This document shows, piece by piece, positions 6 to 19,897 of a DNA stretch of 64,000 bases. The DNA is taken from the NCBI GenBank assembly GCA_017645945.1, contig JAGCNL010000034.1, positions 1,503 through 65,502 on the forward strand. The letters are read 5' to 3'. Below the pieces are notes generated by a model that saw only the letters and a list, made by a program, of their open reading frames with translations, made no database searches and was not told the origin of the DNA. This stretch comes from Salinivirgaceae bacterium. GTDB taxonomy: Bacteria; Bacteroidota; Bacteroidia; Bacteroidales; SZUA-534. Every line of letters begins with the position of its first letter. The first letter of the stretch is position 1. Made by a program: the position numbers and the translations under genes.

Positions 6-1379
6 TTAATTCTCATTGAAATACTCTGCCAGTTCACGGTTTTCGGTTGAGAGACGGCCATAGTGCTCGTCGTGCTGCGAAATGTCGAGTCCAACGGTTT
101 CGTCGGCCTGGCTTACGCGCATCGTAACCATCTTATTTGTAATGTAATAGAGCAGATAGGTCATTGCAAATGTGAAGACAAAGACAATGCAAATGGCAAT
201 CACGTGGTTGAAAATGAACCGTCCGTGCGTAACGCCTTCGGCCACAAGGCTTTCGGCCTCATACTGATAGACAAATATTCCCGAAAGGATTGTGCCGACA
301 ATACCGCCCACACCGTGAGTCGGGAACACATCCAAGGCATCGTCGACGCTGGTGTGGTTTTTCCAGTGGCACGCAAAGTTCGAGATTATGGTGGTGATAA
401 TGGCGATTACAATGCTGTCGCTCACCGACACCCATCCCGCCGACGGTGTAATAGCCACCAGACCAAGCACACCGCCCACAGCGGCACCCATTGCCGACGG
501 CTTGCGGCCTGTCAGACAATCGATAAAAATCCACATCATCATTGCCGTGGCGGCTGCAGTGTTGGTGTTCAGGAAGGCTTTAACGGCCATTCCGTCAGCG
601 TGAAGTGAACTGCCCGCGTTGAATCCGAACCAGCCCAACCACAGCAGCACAGCGCCCAAAACAACGTACGGCACGTTGGCTGGCTCCGATTTCTTATCGC
701 GACGGCGCCCCAAAAAGATTGCGCCAACCAAAGCGGCAATACCGCTCGAAGCGTGAACCACAATGCCACCCGCGAAATCCTTGACGTGCATTCGGCAGAA
801 AAGGCCGTCGGGGTGCCAGGTCATATGCGCAAGCGGACAATAGACGAAAAGGCAGAACAGCGCCATAAAAATCATATAGGCCGAAAAACGTACACGTTCG
901 GCAAACGAACCAGTTATCAATGAAGGGGTTATGATTGCGAATTTCATCTGGAAAAGCGCGTACAGGGCCAGCGGAATGGTCAGTCCCAGACGGGTTGAGA
1001 GCGAGTCGGTGGCCGCACCGCCAACGTTGTGGAACATAAAATATGTGGCGGGGTTGCCAATGATTCCCAAACCGCCGACATCTTCGCCAAAGCAAAGCGA
1101 AAAGCCCACAAACACCCACAGCACGCTGATAATGCCCATTGCGATAATGGACTGAAGGATAGTGGAAATGACGTTTTTCTTGCGAACCATACCACCGTAG
1201 AAGAATGACAGTCCAGGGGTCATCATCAGCACAAAAATGGTGGCGGTAATCATCCACGCAATGTCGGCTGCGCTAATGTTGTCGCTCAATTCCCAGATTC
1301 CCGCCTGTTCGGGAACCAACAGCCCGCAAATGGCAATTATGCCGATAATGGCTGTAAAAATTACGTAACGTTTTTTCAT
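6..1379 (-). CDS. amtB: ammonium transporter, Amt/MEP family (copy 1)
   Basis: 457-aa polytopic membrane protein with Amt-type motifs (DFAGGIVVHASSGIAALVGAIFLGRR, GWFGFNAGS, HGVGGIVGTIL). ATG start confirmed at 1377-1379. Confidence 0.9.
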   Translation of the reverse strand: MKKRYVIFTAIIGIIAICGLLVPEQAGIWELSDNISAADIAWMITATIFVLMMTPGLSFFYGGMVRKKNVISTILQSIIAMGIISVLWVFVGFSLCFGEDVGGLGIIGNPATYFMFHNVGGAATDSLSTRLGLTIPLALYALFQMKFAIITPSLITGSFAERVRFSAYMIFMALFCLFVYCPLAHMTWHPDGLFCRMHVKDFAGGIVVHASSGIAALVGAIFLGRRRDKKSEPANVPYVVLGAVLLWLGWFGFNAGSSLHADGMAVKAFLNTNTAAATAMMMWIFIDCLTGRKPSAMGAAVGGVLGLVAITPSAGWVSVSDSIVIAIITTIISNFACHWKNHTSVDDALDVFPTHGVGGIVGTILSGIFVYQYEAESLVAEGVTHGRFIFNHVIAICIVFVFTFAMTYLLYYITNKMVTMRVSQADETVGLDISQHDEHYGRLSTENRELAEYFNEN

Positions 1380-1419: not shown

Positions 1420-1451
1420 AAAAAAGGCCGATTCCGTTTGAAACCAGCCTT
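1420..1451 (-). terminator. intrinsic terminator/attenuator hairpin in the amt leader
   Basis: Minus strand reads AAGGCTGGTTTC-AAAC-GGAATCGGCCTT followed by a T run. The stem is 12 bp (3 G-U) and lies 40 nt upstream of the amt ATG. Confidence 0.55.
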
Positions 1452-1473
1452 ATGAATTCATTTTGTCTTCAAC

Positions 1474-1599
1474 TCAAACCGCCCGACTGGTTAGGCCCGC
1501 ATATCGATTTCGATTATTATTATGACGATTTCGCCCCGAATTTCGATTCGGATTGAGATTCAAACCATTACCGTTGTTCAAATTCTTGTTCATCGTCAT
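1474..1599 (-). CDS. 41-codon Asn/Arg-rich small ORF (candidate leader peptide)
   Basis: Hand translation gives MTMNKNLNNGNGLNLNPNRNSGRNRHNNNRNRYAGLTSRAV* (14 Asn and 6 Arg of 41). It lies between a promoter-like box and the terminator. A paralogous small ORF sits at 6082-6228. Confidence 0.35.
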   Translation of the reverse strand: MTMNKNLNNGNGLNLNPNRNSGRNRHNNNRNRYAGLTSRAV

Positions 1600-1644
1600 T
1601 TTCTGTTTTAAAATCGAAATGCCCTTTTGTTGTCATTTTCGACG

Positions 1645-1680
1645 TGGCAAATATACAACTGATTTTTATTTTGCAAGTAA
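1645..1680 (-). promoter_or_regulatory. Bacteroidetes-type promoter (-33 TTG / -7 TATATTTG)
   Basis: Minus strand reads TTACTTGCAAAATAAAAATCAGTTGTATATTTGCCACGTC. TATATTTG fits the TAnnTTTG -7 consensus. The same boxes with the same 18-nt spacing recur at 6283-6320. Confidence 0.4.
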
Positions 1681-1843: not shown

Positions 1844-1879
1844 TAAAAACAAGGGCAGGCACGATTTGTACCTACCCTT
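1844..1879 (-). terminator. probable terminator downstream of the ATPase gene
   Basis: Minus strand reads AAGGGTAGG-TACAAATCGTG-CCTGCCCTT followed by GTTTTTAA. The stem pairs 8 of 9 positions. Confidence 0.4.
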
Positions 1880-1955: not shown

Positions 1956-3107
1956 TCACCCCAACCAATTAACATAGTTATCGGGCGTGATAACTGACGT
2001 TTCTTTTACTGGATACGCTTTGAGAAACGCCGACGGCAAAGCGACATTGGCTTTGTTCGGATTGATTTTCATCTCATAAGCAGCCATTTTGCCATCACAC
2101 TCCTCAACATAGTCAATCTCCTGCTTTTCATTTGTTCGCCAGAAGTATTGATTTACAAACCGCCCGTTGTAATGGTTGTATTTAATTCTTTCGGAAATGC
2201 AGAAATTTTCCCATAGGGCACCTGCATCATCACGCAAATCGAGCGGATTGAAATTATGAATCAACGCGTTACGAATTCCGTTGTCGAAGAAAAATATTTT
2301 CTTACTCTTTTTAAGTTCGTTTCTCAAGTTTCGGCTCAAACCGTTCAAGCGAAAAACAACATAGCATTTTTCGAGCAAATCGACATACTTCTCCACCGTT
2401 TTCGCATCGCTGCCTATGGTTTGTGCCAACTCATTATACGACACTACGCCTCCAACCTGCAATGCCAGCGCCACAAGCAGTTTCTCAAGCAAAACGGGTT
2501 TCCGCACACCTTCCATCGACAGCAAATCCTGATACATATAACTGCTCGAAAGGTTCATCAGAATGTCGCGCACATTATCGGCACTGCTTACCACATCGGG
2601 GTATGAGCCGTAAATCAGCCGTGCATCCAACGACTGCCTGACGCGCAGCAAACCACCATTGTTGAGCAATTCCTGTGTCGAAATCGGGAACAAGTGGTAT
2701 TCGAACTTGCGCCCCGTAAGTGGCTCATTTAGTTCGCCTTGCAGCGCAAGTGACGACGAGCCTGTAACCAAAAGTTGGATATCTTTAAAATGGTCGGTTA
2801 TCAGTTTAAGTATCAAGCCGATACCTTGAATGCGCTGCGCCTCATCAATCAGCACAATGCGGTGGTTGGCCAGCAGCATCCGCATATTATTCAGATTGTC
2901 AGACTGTTCCAGTATCGCACGCGTTTGGGCATCATCACAATACAGCCGCAGGATTTGGTCTTGCGGAACTTGAATGTCGGGGGCACTCAAAATCTGCTCA
3001 AAAAGCGTTGTTTTACCCACCTGCCGTGCACCAATAAGCACAATGGCCTTTCCTTTGAACATCCGCTCTTTGATTACATTGTGTAATTGTCGTTTAATCA
3101 GCGCCAT
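1956..3107 (-). CDS. AAA+ ATPase with DUF4143-type C-terminal PD-(D/E)xK-like domain
   Basis: Walker A GARQVGKTTL, Walker B VLIDEAQ, and C-terminal EIDYVEE...AAYEMK (D...ExK-like). It is a solitary gene wedged between the two amt units. Confidence 0.8.
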   Translation of the reverse strand: MALIKRQLHNVIKERMFKGKAIVLIGARQVGKTTLFEQILSAPDIQVPQDQILRLYCDDAQTRAILEQSDNLNNMRMLLANHRIVLIDEAQRIQGIGLILKLITDHFKDIQLLVTGSSSLALQGELNEPLTGRKFEYHLFPISTQELLNNGGLLRVRQSLDARLIYGSYPDVVSSADNVRDILMNLSSSYMYQDLLSMEGVRKPVLLEKLLVALALQVGGVVSYNELAQTIGSDAKTVEKYVDLLEKCYVVFRLNGLSRNLRNELKKSKKIFFFDNGIRNALIHNFNPLDLRDDAGALWENFCISERIKYNHYNGRFVNQYFWRTNEKQEIDYVEECDGKMAAYEMKINPNKANVALPSAFLKAYPVKETSVITPDNYVNWLG

Positions 3108-3217: not shown

Positions 3218-3258
3218 CATATTCTGCCACTCTTTTTCGTTTGTGTTAACATCATATT

Positions 3259-3294
3259 TTTCCGTGATTTCCGTGATTTCCGTGATTTCCGTGG
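3259..3294. repeat. 9-bp tandem repeat (TTTCCGTGA, about 4 copies)
   Basis: The sequence tttccgtga tttccgtga tttccgtga tttccgtgg was read directly. It is intergenic. Confidence 0.9.
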
Positions 3295-3392: not shown

Positions 3393-4706
3393 TTAGTTGT
3401 AAGCTGCTTCGCCGTGCTCGTAAACGTCGAGACCTTCCTCTTCAATTCTCGGCAGCACGCGCAGACCGTGTATCTTCTTGATAATGGTGAACATAATCAA
3501 ACCGCAGACAAACGACCAGCCAGCTATTGTAACCTCGCCAATCAGCTGTGTCAGAACTGAATAGCCGCACTCCGAGTAGGCGAACACGCCTGTCAGAACG
3601 GTGCCAGTGAAGCCTGCCATACCGTGAACCGAAATGGCACCAACAGGGTCATCAATGTGCAGTTTGGTATCAAGGAAGTTAACGCAGAAGCACATAACAA
3701 CCGAAGCAACCAGACCGATAATTGCGGCAGAACCGATTGAAACGCAGTCGCAACCAGCGGTGATACCAACCAGACCAGCCAGAATGCCGTTGCAAACCAT
3801 TGACAGCGACGGTTTTCCGAATACCAGCCAAGTGTAAATCAGGGCTGCGATACCGCCCACAGCGGCTGCAATGTTGGTTGTTACAAAGATGTGCGATGCA
3901 GCAGACATATTGTTCAGGATGCCGCCACCGTAGCAGTCGGCGTCAACAATACCCTCAACAGCCACCGTTGAACCAGGGTTGAATCCGAACCAGCCCATCC
4001 ACAGAATCCACACGCCAAGAGCTGCAAGCGCCAGGTTGTGACCAGGAATGGCGTGAGTGCGGGTTGAGCCGTCGGGCAGTTTGGTGTATTTGCCCAAGCG
4101 CGGACCAAGAACAATGGCACCAGCCAAGGCGATGAAACCGCCGCAAGAGTGAACCACAGCTGAGCCAGCGAAATCGTGGAAACCGAGTTCGCTCAACCAG
4201 CCACCGCCCCACGACCAGTGGCCTTGAATGGGGTAAATCAGCGCTGAAATCACCAGCGAGTAAACCAGATACATTGAGAATTTAGTGCGCTCTGCCATAG
4301 CACCCGACACAATGGTTGCGGCTGTGGCGCAGAACACTGTTTGGAAGATGAAATAGCACTCTTTCGGCAGGTTTCCGCAAGGGTTCTCAACCCCGCCGAT
4401 TCCGAAACCGCCCCAGCCCAGGAACGAGCCAGCGCCGAACATTACAGAGAATCCCAGAATCCAGTACAAAACCGAACCCACCGAGAAGTCCATAAAGTTC
4501 TTCATAAGGATGTTGGCTGTGTTTTTGGCGCGTGTCAGGCCAGCCTCGACCAACGCGAAGCCTGGCTGCATAAAGAACACCAGCATTGCCGCAAGCAACA
4601 CCCAAATTGTATCAACCGCGCTGATGCCACTCTCGGCAGCAGCCTCGGCAGCCGGCGCCACCGCCCCGGCTATTACTGATATGCTATCTGTAACTATTGT
4701 TTCCAT
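3393..4706 (-). CDS. amtB: ammonium transporter, Amt/MEP family (copy 2)
   Basis: 437-aa protein with Amt motifs (FHDFAGSAVVHSCGGFIALAGAIVLGPR, GWFGFNPGS, HGMAGFTGTVL). It follows a P-II gene. Confidence 0.9.
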   Translation of the reverse strand: METIVTDSISVIAGAVAPAAEAAAESGISAVDTIWVLLAAMLVFFMQPGFALVEAGLTRAKNTANILMKNFMDFSVGSVLYWILGFSVMFGAGSFLGWGGFGIGGVENPCGNLPKECYFIFQTVFCATAATIVSGAMAERTKFSMYLVYSLVISALIYPIQGHWSWGGGWLSELGFHDFAGSAVVHSCGGFIALAGAIVLGPRLGKYTKLPDGSTRTHAIPGHNLALAALGVWILWMGWFGFNPGSTVAVEGIVDADCYGGGILNNMSAASHIFVTTNIAAAVGGIAALIYTWLVFGKPSLSMVCNGILAGLVGITAGCDCVSIGSAAIIGLVASVVMCFCVNFLDTKLHIDDPVGAISVHGMAGFTGTVLTGVFAYSECGYSVLTQLIGEVTIAGWSFVCGLIMFTIIKKIHGLRVLPRIEEEGLDVYEHGEAAYN

Positions 4707-4829
4707 TTTCTTAATTTTTTGACTTCAGACTTCCGACAACGGACAACCGACTCCTTACTTATGCCTTTTGCCCTATGTCTTTAGGCCTAAATTGTTAATT
4801 ATTAATTGTTAACTGTTATTTACTGTCAA

Positions 4830-5177
4830 TTACTTCTTGTCCGCCAGAACTGTATCGCCGTGCTCGCCGGTGCGGATTGACCAGGTGTCGTCGACGGGGC
4901 TGACGAATATGCGGCCGTCACCAATCTCGCCTGTGCGCGCCACGCTCATAATGGCGTCGATGGCGGGCTGAACAAACTGGTCGCGGCAGATAATGGTTAT
5001 CTCGATTCGTGAGATGATGTCGGTGCTGTACATCACACCACGGTAGATACGGTCCTCACGGTCCTGCCCAATGGCTTTCACCTCCGTGTAAGAGAACCAG
5101 TTGATGTCGGCGGCAAACAGAGCCTCCTTCACATCGTCGAATTTCGTTTTGCGAATAATCGCTTCAATCTTTTTCAT
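4830..5177 (-). CDS. glnK: P-II family nitrogen regulatory protein (GlnK/GlnB-like)
   Basis: 115 aa starting MKKIEAIIR..FDDVKEAL, ending TGEIGDGRIFVSPV. It lies immediately upstream of amt, the canonical glnK-amtB pairing. Confidence 0.85.
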   Translation of the reverse strand: MKKIEAIIRKTKFDDVKEALFAADINWFSYTEVKAIGQDREDRIYRGVMYSTDIISRIEITIICRDQFVQPAIDAIMSVARTGEIGDGRIFVSPVDDTWSIRTGEHGDTVLADKK

Positions 5178-5296
5178 CGTCTTACATTGTTAAATTATGA
5201 TTTTCGATTTTTGATTTTTCGGACGCCATAATATGACGTCCCTACATATAGCTTGATTTTGAATTCTTTACATCACTAATGCCTAGTGCCTAATGC

Positions 5297-5992
5297 CTAA
5301 AAAGAAATACCCACTGTCATATACATCTTCTTGCTTGTGGGGTTGGCTGCGAGTTGCGCGAACACCGGCAGAGTGAACTTCTCGAATTCGAGTTCTTTTG
5401 TCGCCGTAAGGCTCAAGTTGACTAGTGCGAAACCTTCAGCCCCATAGAAATCGTTCTCCCAAGGCGTTATGCCCAGAGCGGCTTCCCAATCCAAACCGCC
5501 AAGTTTGAACGGCGCAATAACCTCGAAGTACGATGAGTAGGCATCGTCGCCATTCTCTTTGGCTCCCATGGCGCCCCAGAAGTTGGTGTACCAGCCAATC
5601 GAAAGGAATTCGAAATCGTAAGTTAGGCCGGCCTCGAGGGTGTGTGGCGTGCTGTCAGAATAGTCGAAATAATCAACATCGTCCGATGCGCACCAGTAGT
5701 CGGTTACCATGGCCGAGAATCCGCCAACGGCATACGACAGCGTGAAGTCGATTTCCTTGTAGTCGCTGCCCACGATGCTGGCCGAGCCCCACGCTCCGAG
5801 CGAAAGTCCTTTGTAGCCAACCGAGATTGACGGTTGAATGGCCGCGCCGTCGAGTTTGCCGCCACGCCAGATATAAGAACTTACAACATCAGCACCCACC
5901 GATGCTTCAACGCCGTCTTCACCCTCGGCGTAAAGGGTTCCTGTCATAGCCACCAGGCCAATTACAAGCATTGTTTTCTCAATTGTTTTCAT
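5297..5992 (-). CDS. putative outer-membrane beta-barrel porin (TorF/Gcw_chp-like)
   Basis: Signal peptide plus alternating beta-strand pattern (SSYIWRGGKLDGAAIQPSISVGYKGLSLGAWGS, EIDFTLSY). It is the first gene of the porin-PII-amt operon. Confidence 0.55.
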   Translation of the reverse strand: MKTIEKTMLVIGLVAMTGTLYAEGEDGVEASVGADVVSSYIWRGGKLDGAAIQPSISVGYKGLSLGAWGSASIVGSDYKEIDFTLSYAVGGFSAMVTDYWCASDDVDYFDYSDSTPHTLEAGLTYDFEFLSIGWYTNFWGAMGAKENGDDAYSSYFEVIAPFKLGGLDWEAALGITPWENDFYGAEGFALVNLSLTATKELEFEKFTLPVFAQLAANPTSKKMYMTVGISF

Positions 5993-6051
5993 TTTCTTTG
6001 TTTTGTTTATAAGGTTTATAAATGTTGATGTTTGCGTTGCAGCGCGACATC

Positions 6052-6083
6052 AAAAAAGGCTGGTTTCACCGAAGCCAGCCTTT
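6052..6083 (-). terminator. intrinsic terminator/attenuator hairpin in the operon leader
   Basis: Minus strand reads AAAGGCTGG-CTTCGGTGAAA-CCAGCCTTT followed by a T run. It lies 60 nt upstream of the porin ATG and is paralogous to 1420-1451. Confidence 0.55.
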
Positions 6084-6228
6084 AATTTTTCAATTCACTA
6101 TCTGTTTTGCCTCCGGCCCGGCTGGTTGGGCCCGTGCAATATTCATTCTGATTCTGTTTTGAGTTCCAGTAGGAACCCTTCTGCAAATACTGATTCAGAT
6201 TGAAGCCGTTTTCCATTGACTTTTTCAT
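6082..6228 (-). CDS. 48-codon Asn/Gln-rich small ORF (candidate leader peptide, paralog of 1474-1599)
   Basis: Hand translation gives MKKSMENGFNLNQYLQKGSYWNSKQNQNEYCTGPTSRAGGKTDSELKN*. It shares G(L/F)NLN and G(L/P)TSRA with the 41-aa ORF. Its stop codon abuts the terminator stem. Confidence 0.35.
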   Translation of the reverse strand: MKKSMENGFNLNQYLQKGSYWNSKQNQNEYCTGPTSRAGGKTDSELKN

Positions 6229-6282
6229 CTCAATTGTTTTTTAATCGTTCATAAACTGTTTCATTTTTTCTTGTCTTTCGAC

Positions 6283-6320
6283 ATGGCAAATATACGGCCA
6301 ATTTTAATTCTGCAAGCATT
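6283..6320 (-). promoter_or_regulatory. Bacteroidetes-type promoter (-33 TTG / -7 TATATTTG)
   Basis: Minus strand reads AATGCTTGCAGAATTAAAATTGGCCGTATATTTGCCATGT. The boxes and 18-nt spacing are identical to 1645-1680, and GTATATTTGCCAYGTCGAAA is conserved between the two. Confidence 0.4.
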
Positions 6321-6755
6321 TTTTGATATTTATTTTCGATTTATTTTATTTTTATCTATTTTGCTTACGCATTATAATTTTTAATCGCCATAATTTGATT
6401 TTTATTAAAACCGACCGCTTTCGAAAACGTTTTCAATAACAAATCGAAATCGCACTTTTTTCGAAAAATTGGCGTTTTTGAGAATTTTTGAAGAATATTT
6501 GGGTATAAATGGTGAGTTTTATGGCAGATTTTGGCGAGAAAAGCAAATTTTCAAATCGATACCCGTATTTTTATGGGGGTACAACTATAAAAAGGCTGTT
6601 TTTAAAAGAAAGACCTAGAAACCATGTAAAAACGTTCGGCCGACAATAAAAAACGCGCCTATATATAATAATCAAACAAAATATCATTGAATATGCTTTT
6701 GAATTAAAACTAAACAGACTAATTTTGTCGCGATTTATAATTAAAGAATAAAGAA

Positions 6756-8300
6756 ATGTTAAAAACTAAAAACTACACATATATATATGTAAAACGACTG
6801 CAAACGGCACTTGCCATTGCATCAATTTTGGCTACGGTCGCAACCGCCGTGCTAGCGATTTTCCATTTCCGTCTTCTTTTTGTGACAGCCACGGCCGCAC
6901 TAGCGGTGTTCCTCATTCTGGCAAACCTGCTAATCGATAAGTTTGTCGGCGGAAGGATTCTGAAACAGATTGACAATAGTCTGAAACAACTTGCTGCTGG
7001 CGGAAGCGTCACCGTGACGCCCAAGCAGATACGACGGCACCAGATGTTCAGGCGCATTGGCGGTGTGGCGAGACACTACAACGAGTTGGAACGCTACGCT
7101 GAAATCACCGCTTCGGGGCAGAAGTACGAGCCGCTCAACACGCTTGCCGACGACAGTTTTATGCAGGCAATCAGCAAGTTGAAACAGCACCTCGACAAAC
7201 TTGCGAGCGAAGAAAACGACTGGAAGGAACAGGAACTCAAGCGCAACTGGATGAACCAGGGTGTGGCCAAGTTTTCGGACATTATGCGGCAGTCGAACCG
7301 TTCGATGGGCGAGATTGCAAACGAACTGCTGCGCCAGCTCATCAAATACACCGACTGCAACCAGGGTGGCATATTTGTGCGCGAAAACACCGACGATGAG
7401 TTCCTTACAATGATTGCCTCGTATGCCTACGACCGTCAGAAGTTTCCCGACAAGAAATGCAGCCTCGAAGACGGACTGATTGCCGCCGTCTATCACGAGA
7501 AAGCGTCTCTTTTTATGACCGATATCCCCGAGGAGTATCTTGCAATACGTTCGGGTATGGGCGAAGCGTCGCCGCGGTGCTTGTTCCTTGTGCCGCTCAT
7601 CTGCGATGAGAACGTGTTAGGAATAATTGAGTTGGCATCGTTCAGCGTTCTCGACGAGCACAAGCAGAAATTCATTGAGAAGATTGCTGAGAGTTTTGCG
7701 TCAACCTTGTCGGCATCGCACTTGAACAACACAACTGTGAAACTGCTCGAAAAGGCGCAAAAACAGGCGGAACAACTTAAAACTCAAGAAGAAGAACTGC
7801 GCCAAAGCATTGAAGAGATGCAGACGCAACAGGAAGAGATGGAAACCAAGCAACACGAACTGGAAGAGAGCGAGAATCTGATGCGCCGCATCATCGACCT
7901 TGTGCCTTACCCGATTTTTGTGAAAAATATCCACCGCCAGTATATTGTTGCAAACCAGGAAGAAGGCAAGCTCTACAATATGCCCGTTGACAGTCTGCTC
8001 GGACACTCCGATGACGAACTTGTCAACGATATTGACGAGCTGAACGCCATTCACGAAAGTGATACCAAAGTGCTGGAACAAAGGCAAATGATAAAACTGC
8101 CCGAGCAGACCATATCGCTACCCGACGGCACACGGCGCGTGCTGCAAACCATCAAAGTGCCGTTCATCAACAACATTACGCACAACCCGAACATCCTTGG
8201 CGTCTCGTTCGACCTCACATCGGTGCGCGAAATGGAACAACAGCTGCGCAAGAGCGAAGCGAAGGTTAAGGATTTGGAAAATAAGTTGGCGGGGAAATAG
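6756..8300 (+). CDS. membrane-anchored GAF + coiled-coil + PAS sensor protein with no recognisable output domain
   Basis: Two N-terminal TM helices. A GAF-like core (GGIFVRENTDDEFLTMIASYAYDR...LVPLICDENVLGIIELASF), a Q/E-rich coiled coil, and a PAS-like C-terminus (RIIDLVPYPIFVKN...). Confidence 0.6.
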   Translation: MLKTKNYTYIYVKRLQTALAIASILATVATAVLAIFHFRLLFVTATAALAVFLILANLLIDKFVGGRILKQIDNSLKQLAAGGSVTVTPKQIRRHQMFRRIGGVARHYNELERYAEITASGQKYEPLNTLADDSFMQAISKLKQHLDKLASEENDWKEQELKRNWMNQGVAKFSDIMRQSNRSMGEIANELLRQLIKYTDCNQGGIFVRENTDDEFLTMIASYAYDRQKFPDKKCSLEDGLIAAVYHEKASLFMTDIPEEYLAIRSGMGEASPRCLFLVPLICDENVLGIIELASFSVLDEHKQKFIEKIAESFASTLSASHLNNTTVKLLEKAQKQAEQLKTQEEELRQSIEEMQTQQEEMETKQHELEESENLMRRIIDLVPYPIFVKNIHRQYIVANQEEGKLYNMPVDSLLGHSDDELVNDIDELNAIHESDTKVLEQRQMIKLPEQTISLPDGTRRVLQTIKVPFINNITHNPNILGVSFDLTSVREMEQQLRKSEAKVKDLENKLAGK

Positions 8301-19815: not shown

Positions 19816-19887
19816 GGTCTCATAGTTCAATGGATAGAATTTCAGATTCCGGTTCTGACGATTAGGGTTCGACTCCCTATGAGATCA
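19816..19887 (+). tRNA. tRNA-Arg (anticodon CCG)
   Basis: Folded by hand. Acceptor GGTCTCA/TGAGATC (one G-U), D arm GTTC-AATGGATA-GAAT, anticodon arm TCAGA-TTCCGGT-TCTGA, T arm TAGGG-TTCGACT-CCCTA, discriminator A. No encoded CCA. Confidence 0.9.
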
Positions 19888-19897
19888 CTCAAATGAA

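What the first reader, a model, noticed from the sequence alone, without database searches (positions are those of the whole stretch)
1420..1680. Attenuator-like leader upstream of amt: promoter, 41-codon Asn/Arg-rich ORF, intrinsic terminator
**What the sequence shows**
- Upstream of amt copy 1 the minus strand carries, in order: a TTG/TATATTTG promoter, a small ORF and a terminator hairpin.
- The ORF (MTMNKNLNNGNGLNLNPNRNSGRNRHNNNRNRYAGLTSRAV) has 14 Asn and 6 Arg in 41 residues.
- The terminator is a 12-bp hairpin plus T run, 40 nt before the amt ATG.
- Near the ORF 3' end, the segment AACCAGTC can pair with the terminator 5' arm GGCTGGTT (8 bp, one G-U). It could therefore act as an antiterminator.

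**Interpretation**
- A leader peptide built from nitrogen-rich residues in front of an ammonium transporter suggests ribosome-mediated sensing of nitrogen status.
- I am not aware of this being described for Bacteroidota amt genes.

**Caveats**
- The alternative pairing is short.
- The ORF may not be translated.
- The region could instead be a protein- or ligand-binding RNA.
Basis: partly seen in the sequence, partly recalled or inferred. Interest (0 to 1): 0.62.

Follow-up and report, generated by a model that had tools for sequence, protein, structure and literature searches.

The report
Asparagine/glutamine-codon leader attenuator before nitrogen genes
The stretch upstream of the ammonium transporter gene looks like a real regulatory leader: a tiny reading frame packed with asparagine codons followed by a transcription stop signal. 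It belongs to an apparently undescribed family that sits in front of most nitrogen-assimilation genes in some rumen Bacteroidales, and probably lets the ribosome itself sense nitrogen supply.

Summary

It is not a one-off.
- A diverged paralogue lies in the same window (6315-6052) ahead of porin-P-II-amt2.
- A third copy precedes glnN (GSIII) just outside the window.
- More distant relatives in rumen Bacteroidales precede pyrG, P-II-amt, porin-P-II-amt and asnB.

All but one leader examined carry a 33-48-codon ORF with 21-42% Asn+Gln, against 8% in the window's proteins. A CCRG-containing box near the ORF end is complementary to the terminator's 5' arm. A stop codon usually follows 0-5 codons later.

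Indels inside the ORFs are all multiples of three, or compensated. Indels after the stop are not. The box keeps its RNA sequence in three different reading frames.

The best reading is a classical ribosome-mediated attenuator tuned to amide amino acids and spread across a nitrogen regulon.

Weak points:
- The antiterminator is only 6-8 bp, with almost no covariation.
- One GSIII leader lacks Asn/Gln codons.
- There is no experimental evidence of regulated termination.

I found no Rfam family or paper describing it.

The parts
1661..1676 (-). Leader 1 promoter, upstream element: TTGC plus a conserved A-rich spacer (TTGCAAAATAAAAATC).
   Evidence: Sequence. The block TTGCrAwwTwAAAA...TATATTTGCCryGTCrrAA is shared by leaders 1, 2 and 3. 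No metatranscriptome contig covers the region upstream of about 1653 in four RNA runs.
1648..1655 (-). Leader 1 promoter -7 box TATATTTG, matching the Bacteroidetes TAnnTTTG consensus. The transcription start is inferred at about 1645-1640.
   Evidence: The consensus is from established knowledge of Bacteroides promoters. The start site itself was not measured.
1474..1599 (-). Leader ORF of 41 codons plus TGA. The second in-frame ATG at 1593 is the one that aligns with the paralogues' start codon. The ORF holds 14 Asn and 6 Arg codons.
   Evidence: Asn codons are kept through synonymous AAT/AAC changes. The only within-ORF indel among orthologues is 12 nt.
1536..1551 (-). Hairpin inside the ORF, CCGAAU-cgaa-AUUCGG. 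Possibly a pause or timing element.
   Evidence: It is weak here (-5.7 kcal/mol; 100 of 300 shuffles do as well). Hairpins with different stems occupy the equivalent place in leaders 2 and 3 and in the distant groups. One natural variant (L024) has lost it.
1504..1530 (-). Last Asn/Arg codon cluster (codons 24-32, NRHNNNRNR). This is the proposed stalling zone, 16 nt upstream of the box.
   Evidence: The distance from the last Asn/Gln codon to the box is 12-29 nt in 16 of the 17 representatives (5 nt in F_L224).
1481..1496 (-). Box hairpin GCCU[AACCAGUC]GGGC. The loop and box AACCAGTC (1492-1485) form the proposed antiterminator strand.
   Evidence: RNAalifold consensus. When the 5' stem is masked, the box pairs with the terminator's 5' arm in 7 of 7 variants. 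CCAG is invariant in the alignment of 18 distinct leaders.
1420..1451 (-). Intrinsic terminator AAGGCUGGUUUC-AAAC-GGAAUCGGCCUU plus a T run. The 5' arm GGCUGGUU is the partner of the box.
   Evidence: -15.7 kcal/mol. Metatranscriptome contigs read through it into amt1.
6..1379 (-). amt1, the ammonium transporter gene controlled by leader 1.
   Evidence: Pfam Ammonium_transp, E = 9e-110.
6287..6315 (-). Leader 2 promoter: TTGC at 6315-6312 and TATATTTG at 6294-6287.
6082..6228 (-). Leader 2 ORF, MKKSMENGFNLNQYLQKGSYWNSKQNQNEYCTGPTSRAGGKTDSELKN: 48 codons, 7 Asn and 4 Gln. It contains the hairpin GGGUUCC-uacu-GGAACUC (6178-6161) and the box hairpin GGCCC[AACCAGCC]GGGCC (6132-6115).
   Evidence: Orthologues vary the hairpin loop but not its stem. 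In most orthologues the stop lies 5 codons after the box, whereas here the ORF runs up to the terminator.
6052..6083 (-). Leader 2 intrinsic terminator AAAGGCUGGCUUC-GGUG-AAACCAGCCUUU plus a T run.
   Evidence: RNA contigs span it into the porin gene.
3393..5992 (-). Operon controlled by leader 2: porin-like gene (5297-5992), P-II/GlnK (4830-5177) and amt2 (3393-4706).
   Evidence: Pfam P-II and Ammonium_transp. The porin has no Pfam hit here, but homologues give a weak Gcw_chp hit.

Best explanation
This is a ribosome-mediated (leader-peptide) transcription attenuator whose regulatory codons are asparagine codons. Arginine codons accompany them in this copy and glutamine codons in most relatives.

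**Proposed mechanism**
- Transcription starts just downstream of TATATTTG, and a ribosome begins translating the 39-41-codon leader ORF.
- With plentiful nitrogen, Asn-tRNA (and Gln- or Arg-tRNA) is charged. The ribosome runs on to the stop codon three codons past the box (Ser38-Arg39-Ala40-Val41-stop) and covers AACCAGUC.
- The terminator arm GGCUGGUU can then pair only with its own 3' arm. RNA polymerase stops at the T run (about 1420) and amt1 is not made.
- With scarce nitrogen, the ribosome lags in the Asn-rich stretch, whose last Asn codon is 16 nt before the box.
- The box is then free when the terminator's 5' arm emerges. The two pair, the terminator cannot form, and transcription continues into amt1.

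**Wider picture**
- The same device precedes porin-P-II-amt2 in this window. In related genomes it precedes glnN, asnB, pyrG and P-II-amt.
- It therefore acts as a cis-encoded nitrogen (amide amino acid) sensor for a whole regulon.

**Status of each step**
- Shown: the sequence elements, their conservation, ORF-preserving evolution, the gene association, and read-through transcripts.
- Inferred: translation of the ORF, stalling at Asn/Gln codons, the box-arm antiterminator, and the direction of regulation.
For: **Anatomy**
- The anatomy at the stated coordinates is confirmed.

**Paralogues and relatives**
- A second, about 55% identical, paralogous leader in the same window has the same promoter type, an ORF in the same frame, the same box and the same terminator.
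- A third leader precedes glnN.
- Distant members were found by a metagenome scan and a peptide-profile search. They precede pyrG, P-II-amt, porin-P-II-amt, P-II-amt-porin-asnB and asnB-GSIII. Pfam confirms the gene identities.

**Codon content**
- Asn+Gln is 21-42% of every representative ORF against 8.0% in window proteins.
- Chance matches to the same terminator pattern have 0-12%.
- In 1.54 Mb of fetched loci, every N/Q-rich short ORF followed by a terminator was one of these leaders.
- AAU makes up 76% of Asn codons and CAG 96% of Gln codons in leaders, against 46% and 50% in genes.
- Asn codons change synonymously while neighbouring codons change freely.
- AAY triplets fall 14:0:1 by frame.

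**Selection on translation**
- Within-ORF indels are 12, 6, 18, 3, 6, 18, 6, 21, 9, 3 and 6 nt, plus a compensated -1/+1 pair.
- Indels after the stop are mostly 1-5 nt, plus one of 16 nt.

**RNA-level conservation of the box**
- The box is read as T/S-S-R, as P-A-stop, or as D-R-S in different groups.
- The stop codon lies 0-5 codons after the box in nearly all members.

**Folding**
- With the box hairpin's 5' stem masked, the nascent RNA pairs box with arm in 7 of 7 variants.
- With a ribosome placed at the stop codon, the arm is free in most pyrG-group (4 of 5) and porin-group leaders.

**Transcripts and physiology**
- Metatranscriptome contigs run from the leaders through the terminators into amt1, the porin gene and P-II.
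- Nitrogen limitation is known to stall ribosomes at Gln codons in E. coli.
Against: - The proposed antiterminator is only 6-8 bp, and its core never varies. Only one pair shows a compensatory change (A-U to G-C). The covariation measures do not exceed shuffles, and single-sequence significance is modest.
- Equilibrium folding with simulated ribosomes is untidy. In several variants the arm finds other partners.
- In the window's own leader 2 and in L152, the ORF runs right up to the terminator. A tightly coupled ribosome would then mask the terminator rather than the box.
- One GSIII leader (L239 6050-6157) has the box and terminator but only 2 Asn/Gln among 35 codons.
- The in-ORF hairpin is weak in leader 1 and absent in variant L024.
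- AAU-rich hexamer repeats keep their own phase and close the other frames. Part of the frame bias is therefore built in.
- There are no raw reads, 3'-end data, ribosome profiling data or known cultured host. RNA evidence is from assembled contigs of mixed strains.
Confidence: 0.7

Rival explanations
1. Factor-dependent attenuation. A protein or small RNA recognises the conserved CCAG(Y)C box, the GGCUGG arm or the in-ORF hairpin, and decides between termination and read-through. This would be comparable to TRAP, PyrR, HutP or ANTAR systems. On this reading the short ORF is incidental or only modulates the decision.
For: - The box and arm are conserved in sequence well beyond what pairing alone requires, and covariation is nearly absent.
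- A module CAGAACCAGAAUAAUAAUCAGGUUC is shared almost unchanged by the pyrG, P-II, porin and asnB leaders.
- One GSIII leader keeps the box and terminator without Asn/Gln codons.
- A P-II protein and a divergently transcribed GAF-PAS protein are encoded next to leader 2.
Against: - This reading does not explain why ORFs stay open with indels in multiples of three and a compensated frameshift.
- It does not explain why Asn/Gln codons are in frame.
- It does not explain why the stop codon keeps a fixed distance from the box.
- No match to ANTAR, T-box, PyrR or any other Rfam family was found.
- The loops are not ANTAR-type hexaloops.
Confidence: 0.12
2. General translation-coupling attenuator. 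Termination depends on how closely any ribosome follows the polymerase, as in pyrBI-like control or global (p)ppGpp and elongation-rate effects. It would not depend specifically on Asn/Gln-tRNA charging.
For: - The ORF of leader 2 in this window extends to the foot of the terminator, as the leader ORF of E. coli pyrBI does (the pyrBI comparison is from established knowledge).
- A GSIII leader lacks Asn/Gln codons.
- pyrG, a nucleotide-synthesis gene, is among the targets.
Against: - The one property shared by all but one of the otherwise unrelated leader peptides examined is 21-42% Asn+Gln, with strong AAU and CAG preference.
- The regulated genes all acquire ammonium or consume glutamine.
Confidence: 0.1
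3. An independent small-protein gene. The Asn/Gln-rich peptide would itself be functional, for example as a modulator of Amt or P-II, with its own terminator. Downstream genes would be expressed by leaky read-through.
For: - Gene callers predict it as a hypothetical protein in many assemblies.
- A small protein that inhibits an ammonium transporter is known in Methanosarcina (title of PMC10714827, listed).
Against: - Peptide sequence is not conserved between groups apart from its composition.
- A frameshifted segment is tolerated.
- The C-terminal motif changes with reading frame while the RNA box stays the same.
- The element also precedes pyrG, asnB and glnN, not only transporters.
Confidence: 0.05

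Closest known systems
Classical leader-peptide attenuators of amino-acid biosynthetic operons (trp, his, leu, thr, ilv, pheA of Proteobacteria; Bacteroid-trp leader, Rfam RF01692)
   Same: - A promoter-proximal short ORF is enriched in codons for the sensed amino acid.
- An intrinsic terminator lies before the structural gene.
- An upstream segment can pair with the terminator's 5' arm.
- The stop codon is placed so that a completed ribosome covers that segment.
- For the asnB copy the logic is exactly the classical one: Asn codons control asparagine synthetase.
   Different: - The regulatory codons are Asn plus Gln (Asn plus Arg in this copy). I know of no described attenuator using these.
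- The targets are not one biosynthetic operon. They are a nitrogen-assimilation regulon: amt, glnK/P-II, porin, GSIII, asnB and pyrG.
- The codons are spread over the peptide and partly sit inside a hairpin loop.
- The antiterminator is short (6-8 bp).
- The Rfam Thr_leader model scores only 14.7 bits against a cut-off of 55.
Glutamine riboswitches (glnA RNA and Downstream-peptide motif; cyanobacteria and marine metagenomes)
   Same: These are cis-acting RNA elements that sense an amide amino acid. [quoted passage not shown]
   Different: - They bind glutamine directly and need no ORF.
- They have a different fold and occur in a different phylum.
- No Rfam match was found here at E up to 10 or at gathering score.
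pyrBI and pyrG leaders (E. coli UTP-sensitive coupling; Firmicutes CTP-sensitive reiterative transcription)
   Same: Both are attenuators ahead of pyrimidine genes. In pyrBI the leader ORF runs into the terminator, as the window's leader 2 ORF does.
   Different: - Those systems sense nucleotides through polymerase pausing or reiterative transcription.
- The leaders here are Asn/Gln-rich.
- The same design precedes amt, glnN and asnB.
ANTAR-type antitermination of nitrogen genes (NasR, AmiR, EutV)
   Same: Nitrogen-related genes are controlled by a choice between a terminator and an alternative structure that overlaps its 5' arm.
   Different: - ANTAR targets are two hexaloop hairpins bound by a protein, with no ORF.
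- Here the loops are 4, 8 or 13 nt, an ORF is conserved, and there is no Rfam hit.

Membership tests
Leader-peptide (ribosome-mediated) transcription attenuator | A short ORF with a start codon lies between the promoter and the structural gene and is kept open in relatives. | tested here: met
   ORF 1599..1474. ORFs of 33-48 codons are present in every member. Within-ORF indels are multiples of three or compensated, whereas indels after the stop are not.
Leader-peptide (ribosome-mediated) transcription attenuator | The ORF is enriched in codons of the sensed amino acid(s). | tested here: met
   14 Asn among 41 codons. Asn+Gln is 21-42% across the groups against an 8.0% background (P from 5e-3 to 3e-9). 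One GSIII leader is an exception.
Leader-peptide (ribosome-mediated) transcription attenuator | An intrinsic terminator lies between the ORF and the regulated gene. | tested here: met
   Hairpin 1451..1424 plus T run. Equivalent terminators are present in nearly all members; one (L242) lacks a clean T run.
Leader-peptide (ribosome-mediated) transcription attenuator | A mutually exclusive antiterminator exists whose formation depends on ribosome position. | tested here: inconclusive
   Box-arm complementarity of 6-8 bp is found at a fixed place in all groups. The core is invariant, only one pair is compensatory, and the result is no better than shuffles. Simulated ribosome positions give the expected outcome in many variants but not all.
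Leader-peptide (ribosome-mediated) transcription attenuator | The regulated genes are linked to the metabolism of the sensed amino acid. | tested here: met
   Targets are amt, P-II, GSIII, asparagine synthase and CTP synthase (a glutamine amidotransferase).
Leader-peptide (ribosome-mediated) transcription attenuator | Read-through that depends on starvation and translation is demonstrated. | not testable with these tools
   Only assembled metatranscriptome contigs were available. They show read-through transcripts but not regulation.
Glutamine riboswitch (glnA RNA / Downstream-peptide) | The sequence matches the family covariance model. | tested here: not met
   No hit at E up to 10 in 1300-2000. 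No hit at gathering score in the window or six related loci.
ANTAR target RNA | Two tandem hairpins with hexaloops are present, the second overlapping the terminator. | tested here: not met
   The loops are 4 nt (in-ORF hairpin) and 8 nt (box hairpin). There is no Rfam hit.
Thr/other Rfam leader families | The score reaches the family's gathering threshold. | tested here: not met
   Thr_leader scores 14.7 bits against a threshold of 55. This reflects the terminator only.

The most novel reading that the evidence does not exclude
In several lineages of rumen Bacteroidales, the nitrogen-assimilation regulon is switched mainly by ribosome stalling at Asn and Gln codons in leader peptides. The regulon comprises ammonium transporters, GlnK/P-II, an outer-membrane porin, GSIII glutamine synthetase, asparagine synthetase and CTP synthase. 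Translation itself would then be the cell's nitrogen sensor. It would take the role that NtrC, NtcA, GlnR or TnrA play elsewhere, in a phylum where no master nitrogen regulator is established.
Probability: 0.45. Interest if true: 0.88.

Novelty: new variant of a known kind. Interest (0 to 1): 0.78.

Why it matters
**Open question addressed**
- How Bacteroidota sense nitrogen is poorly understood. The classical regulators of Proteobacteria, Firmicutes, Actinobacteria and cyanobacteria are not known to operate there.
- Rumen nitrogen use has economic and environmental weight.

**What would be new**
- Attenuation would extend from single amino-acid pathways to global nitrogen control.
- Asn and Gln would join the list of amino acids read by leader peptides.
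- It would show a second, translation-based solution to the problem cyanobacteria solve with glutamine riboswitches.

**Practical value**
- The idea is directly testable with reporter fusions.
- The leader gives annotators a sequence signature for nitrogen-regulated genes in uncultured Bacteroidales. The short ORF is currently either called 'hypothetical protein' or missed.

Tried and rejected
**Database searches that found nothing**
- Rfam found no family, either at E up to 10 on the region or at gathering score on the window plus six loci.
- A promoter-motif scan of genome contigs returned only the loci already known, so it revealed no wider regulon.
- The first peptide-profile search, with the window's own leaders, found only 7 near-identical peptides.
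- Seven literature searches and four paper look-ups found no description of the element.

**Homologues without a leader**
- amt1 homologues at 84% identity or less (other Bacteroidales, Prevotella) have no such leader within 450 nt upstream.
- Porin homologues in Phocaeicola, Bacteroides and Rikenellaceae have none either.
- The element is therefore lineage-restricted, not a general Bacteroidota feature.

**Structures rejected or left weak**
- The long-range helix (GCAUUUCGAUUUU...AAUCGAAAUCGAUAUGC) and the AUGACGAU/AUCGUCAU helix appear in the minimum-energy fold.
  - I rejected them as conserved features.
  - Variants L056 and L058 replace the 5' partner entirely. The L002 group changes one strand without compensation.
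- The in-ORF hairpin is statistically convincing only in the pyrG group.
- The formal covariation count on the antiterminator is not significant.
- Ribosome-masking folds gave a mixed picture.

**RNA evidence that could not decide**
- Contig ends fall at 1596, at 6227 (one followed by adapter sequence) and at L191 5271-5276, all near the leader start codons.
- One contig (X33) spans only the start codon to the terminator.
- I considered leaderless transcripts, RNA processing and premature termination as explanations.
- I cannot separate these from assembly breaks at points where strains diverge.

**Technical failures**
- One hairpin script timed out.
Full report
**Observation**

- TTGC lies at 1676-1673 and TATATTTG at 1655-1648. 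Together these match the Bacteroidetes -33/-7 promoter pattern, which is established knowledge.
- The ORF at 1599..1474 encodes MTMNKNLNNGNGLNLNPNRNSGRNRHNNNRNRYAGLTSRAV, with 14 Asn and 6 Arg.
- A 12-pair hairpin lies at 1451..1424, with a T run to 1420.
- AACCAGTC at 1492-1485 is complementary to GGCTGGTT in the terminator's 5' arm.
- The upstream AAA-ATPase/DUF4143 gene (1956..3107) has its own terminator at 1879..1851. The leader is therefore a separate transcription unit.
- Rfam has nothing for this region. The best relevant score is Thr_leader at 14.7 bits against a cut-off of 55, and that reflects only the terminator.

**A second copy in the window**

A paralogous leader lies upstream of the porin-like gene, P-II and amt2 (5992..3393), at 6315-6052. 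Aligned with leader 1 it is only about 55% identical. It keeps these features:
- the promoter block cTTGCA..GTATATTTGCCAyGTCGAAA;
- an ATG that aligns with the second ATG of leader 1 (1593);
- an open frame in the same phase;
- the box GGGCCyAACCAGyCGGGC;
- a terminator with the same 5' arm, AAGGCUGG.

Its peptide, MKKSMENGFNLNQYLQKGSYWNSKQNQNEYCTGPTSRAGGKTDSELKN, is rich in Asn and Gln rather than Asn and Arg.

**Close relatives**

A pattern scan plus searches with the amt1 and porin proteins in genome contigs recovered 21 distinct variants of leaders 1 and 2. All come from rumen MAGs labelled Salinivirgaceae or uncultured Bacteroidales/Bacteroidetes.

Observations on leader 1 orthologues:
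- Asn codons are conserved. Three change synonymously and one is lost.
- Three other codons (Lys5, Gly12, Tyr33) become Asn in some variants, while the remaining non-Asn codons change freely.
- The only within-ORF indel is 12 nt.
- Two variants (L056, L058) have an unrelated 5' UTR but an intact ORF. This removes the long-range helices of the single-sequence fold as candidates.
- In variant L075 the flanks of the box are rewritten, but CCAGTCGG and the stop position are retained.

amt1 homologues at 84% identity or less, and porin homologues in Phocaeicola, Bacteroides and Rikenellaceae, have no such leader.

**A larger family**

A metagenome scan for box-N-arm-N-T-run returned the known leaders, GC-rich chance hits, and a new set of AT-rich rumen contigs. 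The short ORFs in the new set were not part of the search pattern, yet they are extremely rich in Asn and Gln. An example is MDIVLTHSSFHNQVDNNQNQNNNQVLNNQFCSSSRTIC.

I then scanned all 1.54 Mb of fetched DNA for N/Q-rich short ORFs followed by a terminator. The scan found only such leaders, and it revealed two further types:
- a third leader in the window's own lineage ahead of glnN (GSIII_N), about 3.9 kb beyond the window's left end;
- a leader ahead of P-II-amt.

A peptide-profile search then returned 134 short proteins. One of them, MFIGFKNITTVQLNNNQQQNNQNQNNNQVPMVIPFDRSGM, is indexed in 586 blocks of the collection and seen on 422 contigs.

Genomic contexts are as follows:

| Group | Downstream genes |
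|---|---|
| A | amt1 |
| B | porin-P-II-amt2 |
| C | glnN |
| D | pyrG (CTP synthase, a glutamine amidotransferase) |
| E | P-II-amt-porin(-asnB) |
| F | porin-P-II-amt or P-II-amt-porin-asnB |
| G | asnB(-GSIII) |

The Amt proteins of groups D-F are about 60% identical to the window's amt2. The family therefore spans well-separated Bacteroidales lineages.

**What is conserved**

(i) Codon content.
- Asn+Gln is 21-42% of each ORF against 8.0% in window proteins.
- Chance matches to the same terminator pattern have 0-12%.
- AAU makes up 76% of Asn codons and CAG 96% of Gln codons, against 46% and 50% in genes.

(ii) The reading frame.
- Within-ORF indels are 12, 6, 18, 3, 6, 18, 6, 21, 9, 3 and 6 nt.
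- L224 carries a -1/+1 pair that shifts about 27 nt of frame and then restores it before the box.
- After the stop codon, indels are mostly 1-5 nt, plus one of 16 nt.

(iii) The box.
- A CCRG-containing box near the ORF end is complementary to the terminator's 5' arm.
- It is read as [T/S]-S-R in groups A, B, D and F, as P-A-stop in C, and as D-R-S or D-Q in E and G.
- It is therefore conserved as RNA, not as peptide.

(iv) Spacing.
- The stop codon lies 0-5 codons after the box and 17-36 nt before the terminator in most members.

(v) An in-ORF hairpin.
- A hairpin sits inside the ORF with different stems in different groups: CCGAAU/AUUCGG, GGGUUCC/GGAACUC, UUUGAAUUC/GAAUUCGAA and CAGAACC/GGUUCUG.
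- In groups D-F it often holds AAUAAUAAU in its loop.
- It is strong in the pyrG group, modest elsewhere, and absent in one variant.

**Mechanism**

The layout matches classical attenuation.
- A ribosome that reaches the stop codon covers the box, and the terminator forms.
- A ribosome delayed in the Asn/Gln stretch, whose last such codon lies 12-29 nt before the box in 16 of the 17 representatives, leaves the box free. The box can then capture the terminator's 5' arm as it emerges.
- In groups A and B a small hairpin presents the box in its loop (RNAalifold). When its 5' stem is masked, as by a ribosome stalled at the last Asn codon, the box pairs with the arm in 7 of 7 variants.
- The physiological logic is sound. 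Nitrogen limitation depletes glutamine and stalls ribosomes at Gln codons in E. coli, and Asn is made from Gln or ammonium.
- The asnB copy is an ordinary amino-acid attenuator. The others extend the same sensor to ammonium uptake, its regulator P-II, GSIII and CTP synthase.

**Weak points**

- The antiterminator is short and its core is invariant. Only one position shows a compensatory change (A-U in groups A, B, C and part of D; G-C in groups E and G). Shuffles do as well as the observed pattern on the covariation measures.
- Ribosome-masking folds are not clean for every variant.
- The window's leader 2 and L152 have ORFs that end at the foot of the terminator, which fits the simple model less well.
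- One GSIII leader has the box and terminator but an ORF without Asn/Gln enrichment.
- AAU-based hexamer repeats partly enforce their own frame.

**RNA evidence**

- Rumen metatranscriptome assemblies contain the leaders joined to the downstream genes across the terminators, so read-through transcripts exist.
- Four RNA runs show nothing upstream of about 1653, and four show nothing upstream of 6227.
- Contig ends cluster at the leader start codons: 1596; 6227, followed by adapter sequence; and 5271-5276 in L191.
- One 192-nt contig spans just the start codon to the terminator of the P-II leader.
- These may reflect real RNA ends. They may equally be assembly breaks where strains diverge. No raw reads were available.

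**Comparison with known systems, and verdict**

- It works like trp/his/thr-type leader-peptide attenuators and meets their sequence-level criteria. The exceptions are a well-supported antiterminator and any functional test.
- It is not a glutamine riboswitch, an ANTAR target, a T-box or a known Rfam leader.
- I found no paper describing Asn/Gln-rich leaders before nitrogen genes.
- I rate it a new variant of a known kind.

Noticed in passing
window 6049-6320 (minus strand): A paralogous leader (promoter, 48-codon Asn/Gln-rich ORF, box, terminator) lies ahead of porin-P-II-amt2. Its ORF ends at the foot of the terminator, unlike most family members.
   Followed up: yes
L024 6595-6800 (about 3.9 kb beyond the window's left end, same strand as amt1): A third leader of the same genome lineage lies ahead of the GSIII glutamine synthetase gene, with an asparagine synthase gene upstream. 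Its box CCAGCC is in a different reading frame and is followed directly by the stop codon.
   Followed up: yes
window 1596 and 6227; L191 5271-5276: Metatranscriptome contigs end within a few bases of the leader ORF start codons in three different leaders. One end is followed by Illumina adapter sequence. This could reflect RNA processing, leaderless starts, or assembly breaks where strains diverge.
   Followed up: partly
window 6756-8297 (+): A GAF-PAS domain protein with no recognised output domain in Pfam is transcribed divergently from leader 2. It is a possible additional regulator of the locus.
   Followed up: no
window about 3257-3294 (minus strand): A tandem 9-nt repeat (CACGGAAAT, about four copies) lies just downstream of the amt2 terminator (3339-3308).
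   Followed up: no
L239 6050-6157: A leader ahead of GSIII in another lineage has the CCAGCC box and an AAAGGCUGG terminator. Its 35-codon ORF has only 2 Asn/Gln codons and its T run is interrupted.
   Followed up: partly
L198, L201 and L224, about 60-130 nt upstream of their leader ORFs: A near-palindrome TTGACAnnTGTCAA and a second GTTGACAAA lie upstream of the group F leaders. This may be a transcription-factor site acting on the same operons.
   Followed up: no
L024 5981-6026 (-) and 6122-6167 (+): Two matches above gathering score to the Rfam Acido-Lenti-1 RNA, on opposite strands, lie just upstream of leader 3 (6595-6697) and the glnN gene it precedes. They are outside the window.
   Followed up: no
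L238 5864-5977: A near-perfect long inverted repeat lies between amt and the porin gene. The fold of the ORF plus about 110 nt downstream gives about -90 kcal/mol. Gene callers annotate it as a 37-aa ORF.
   Followed up: no
window 19816-19888 (+): A tRNA-Arg(CCG) gene. CGG is one of the Arg codons used in leader 1.
   Followed up: no
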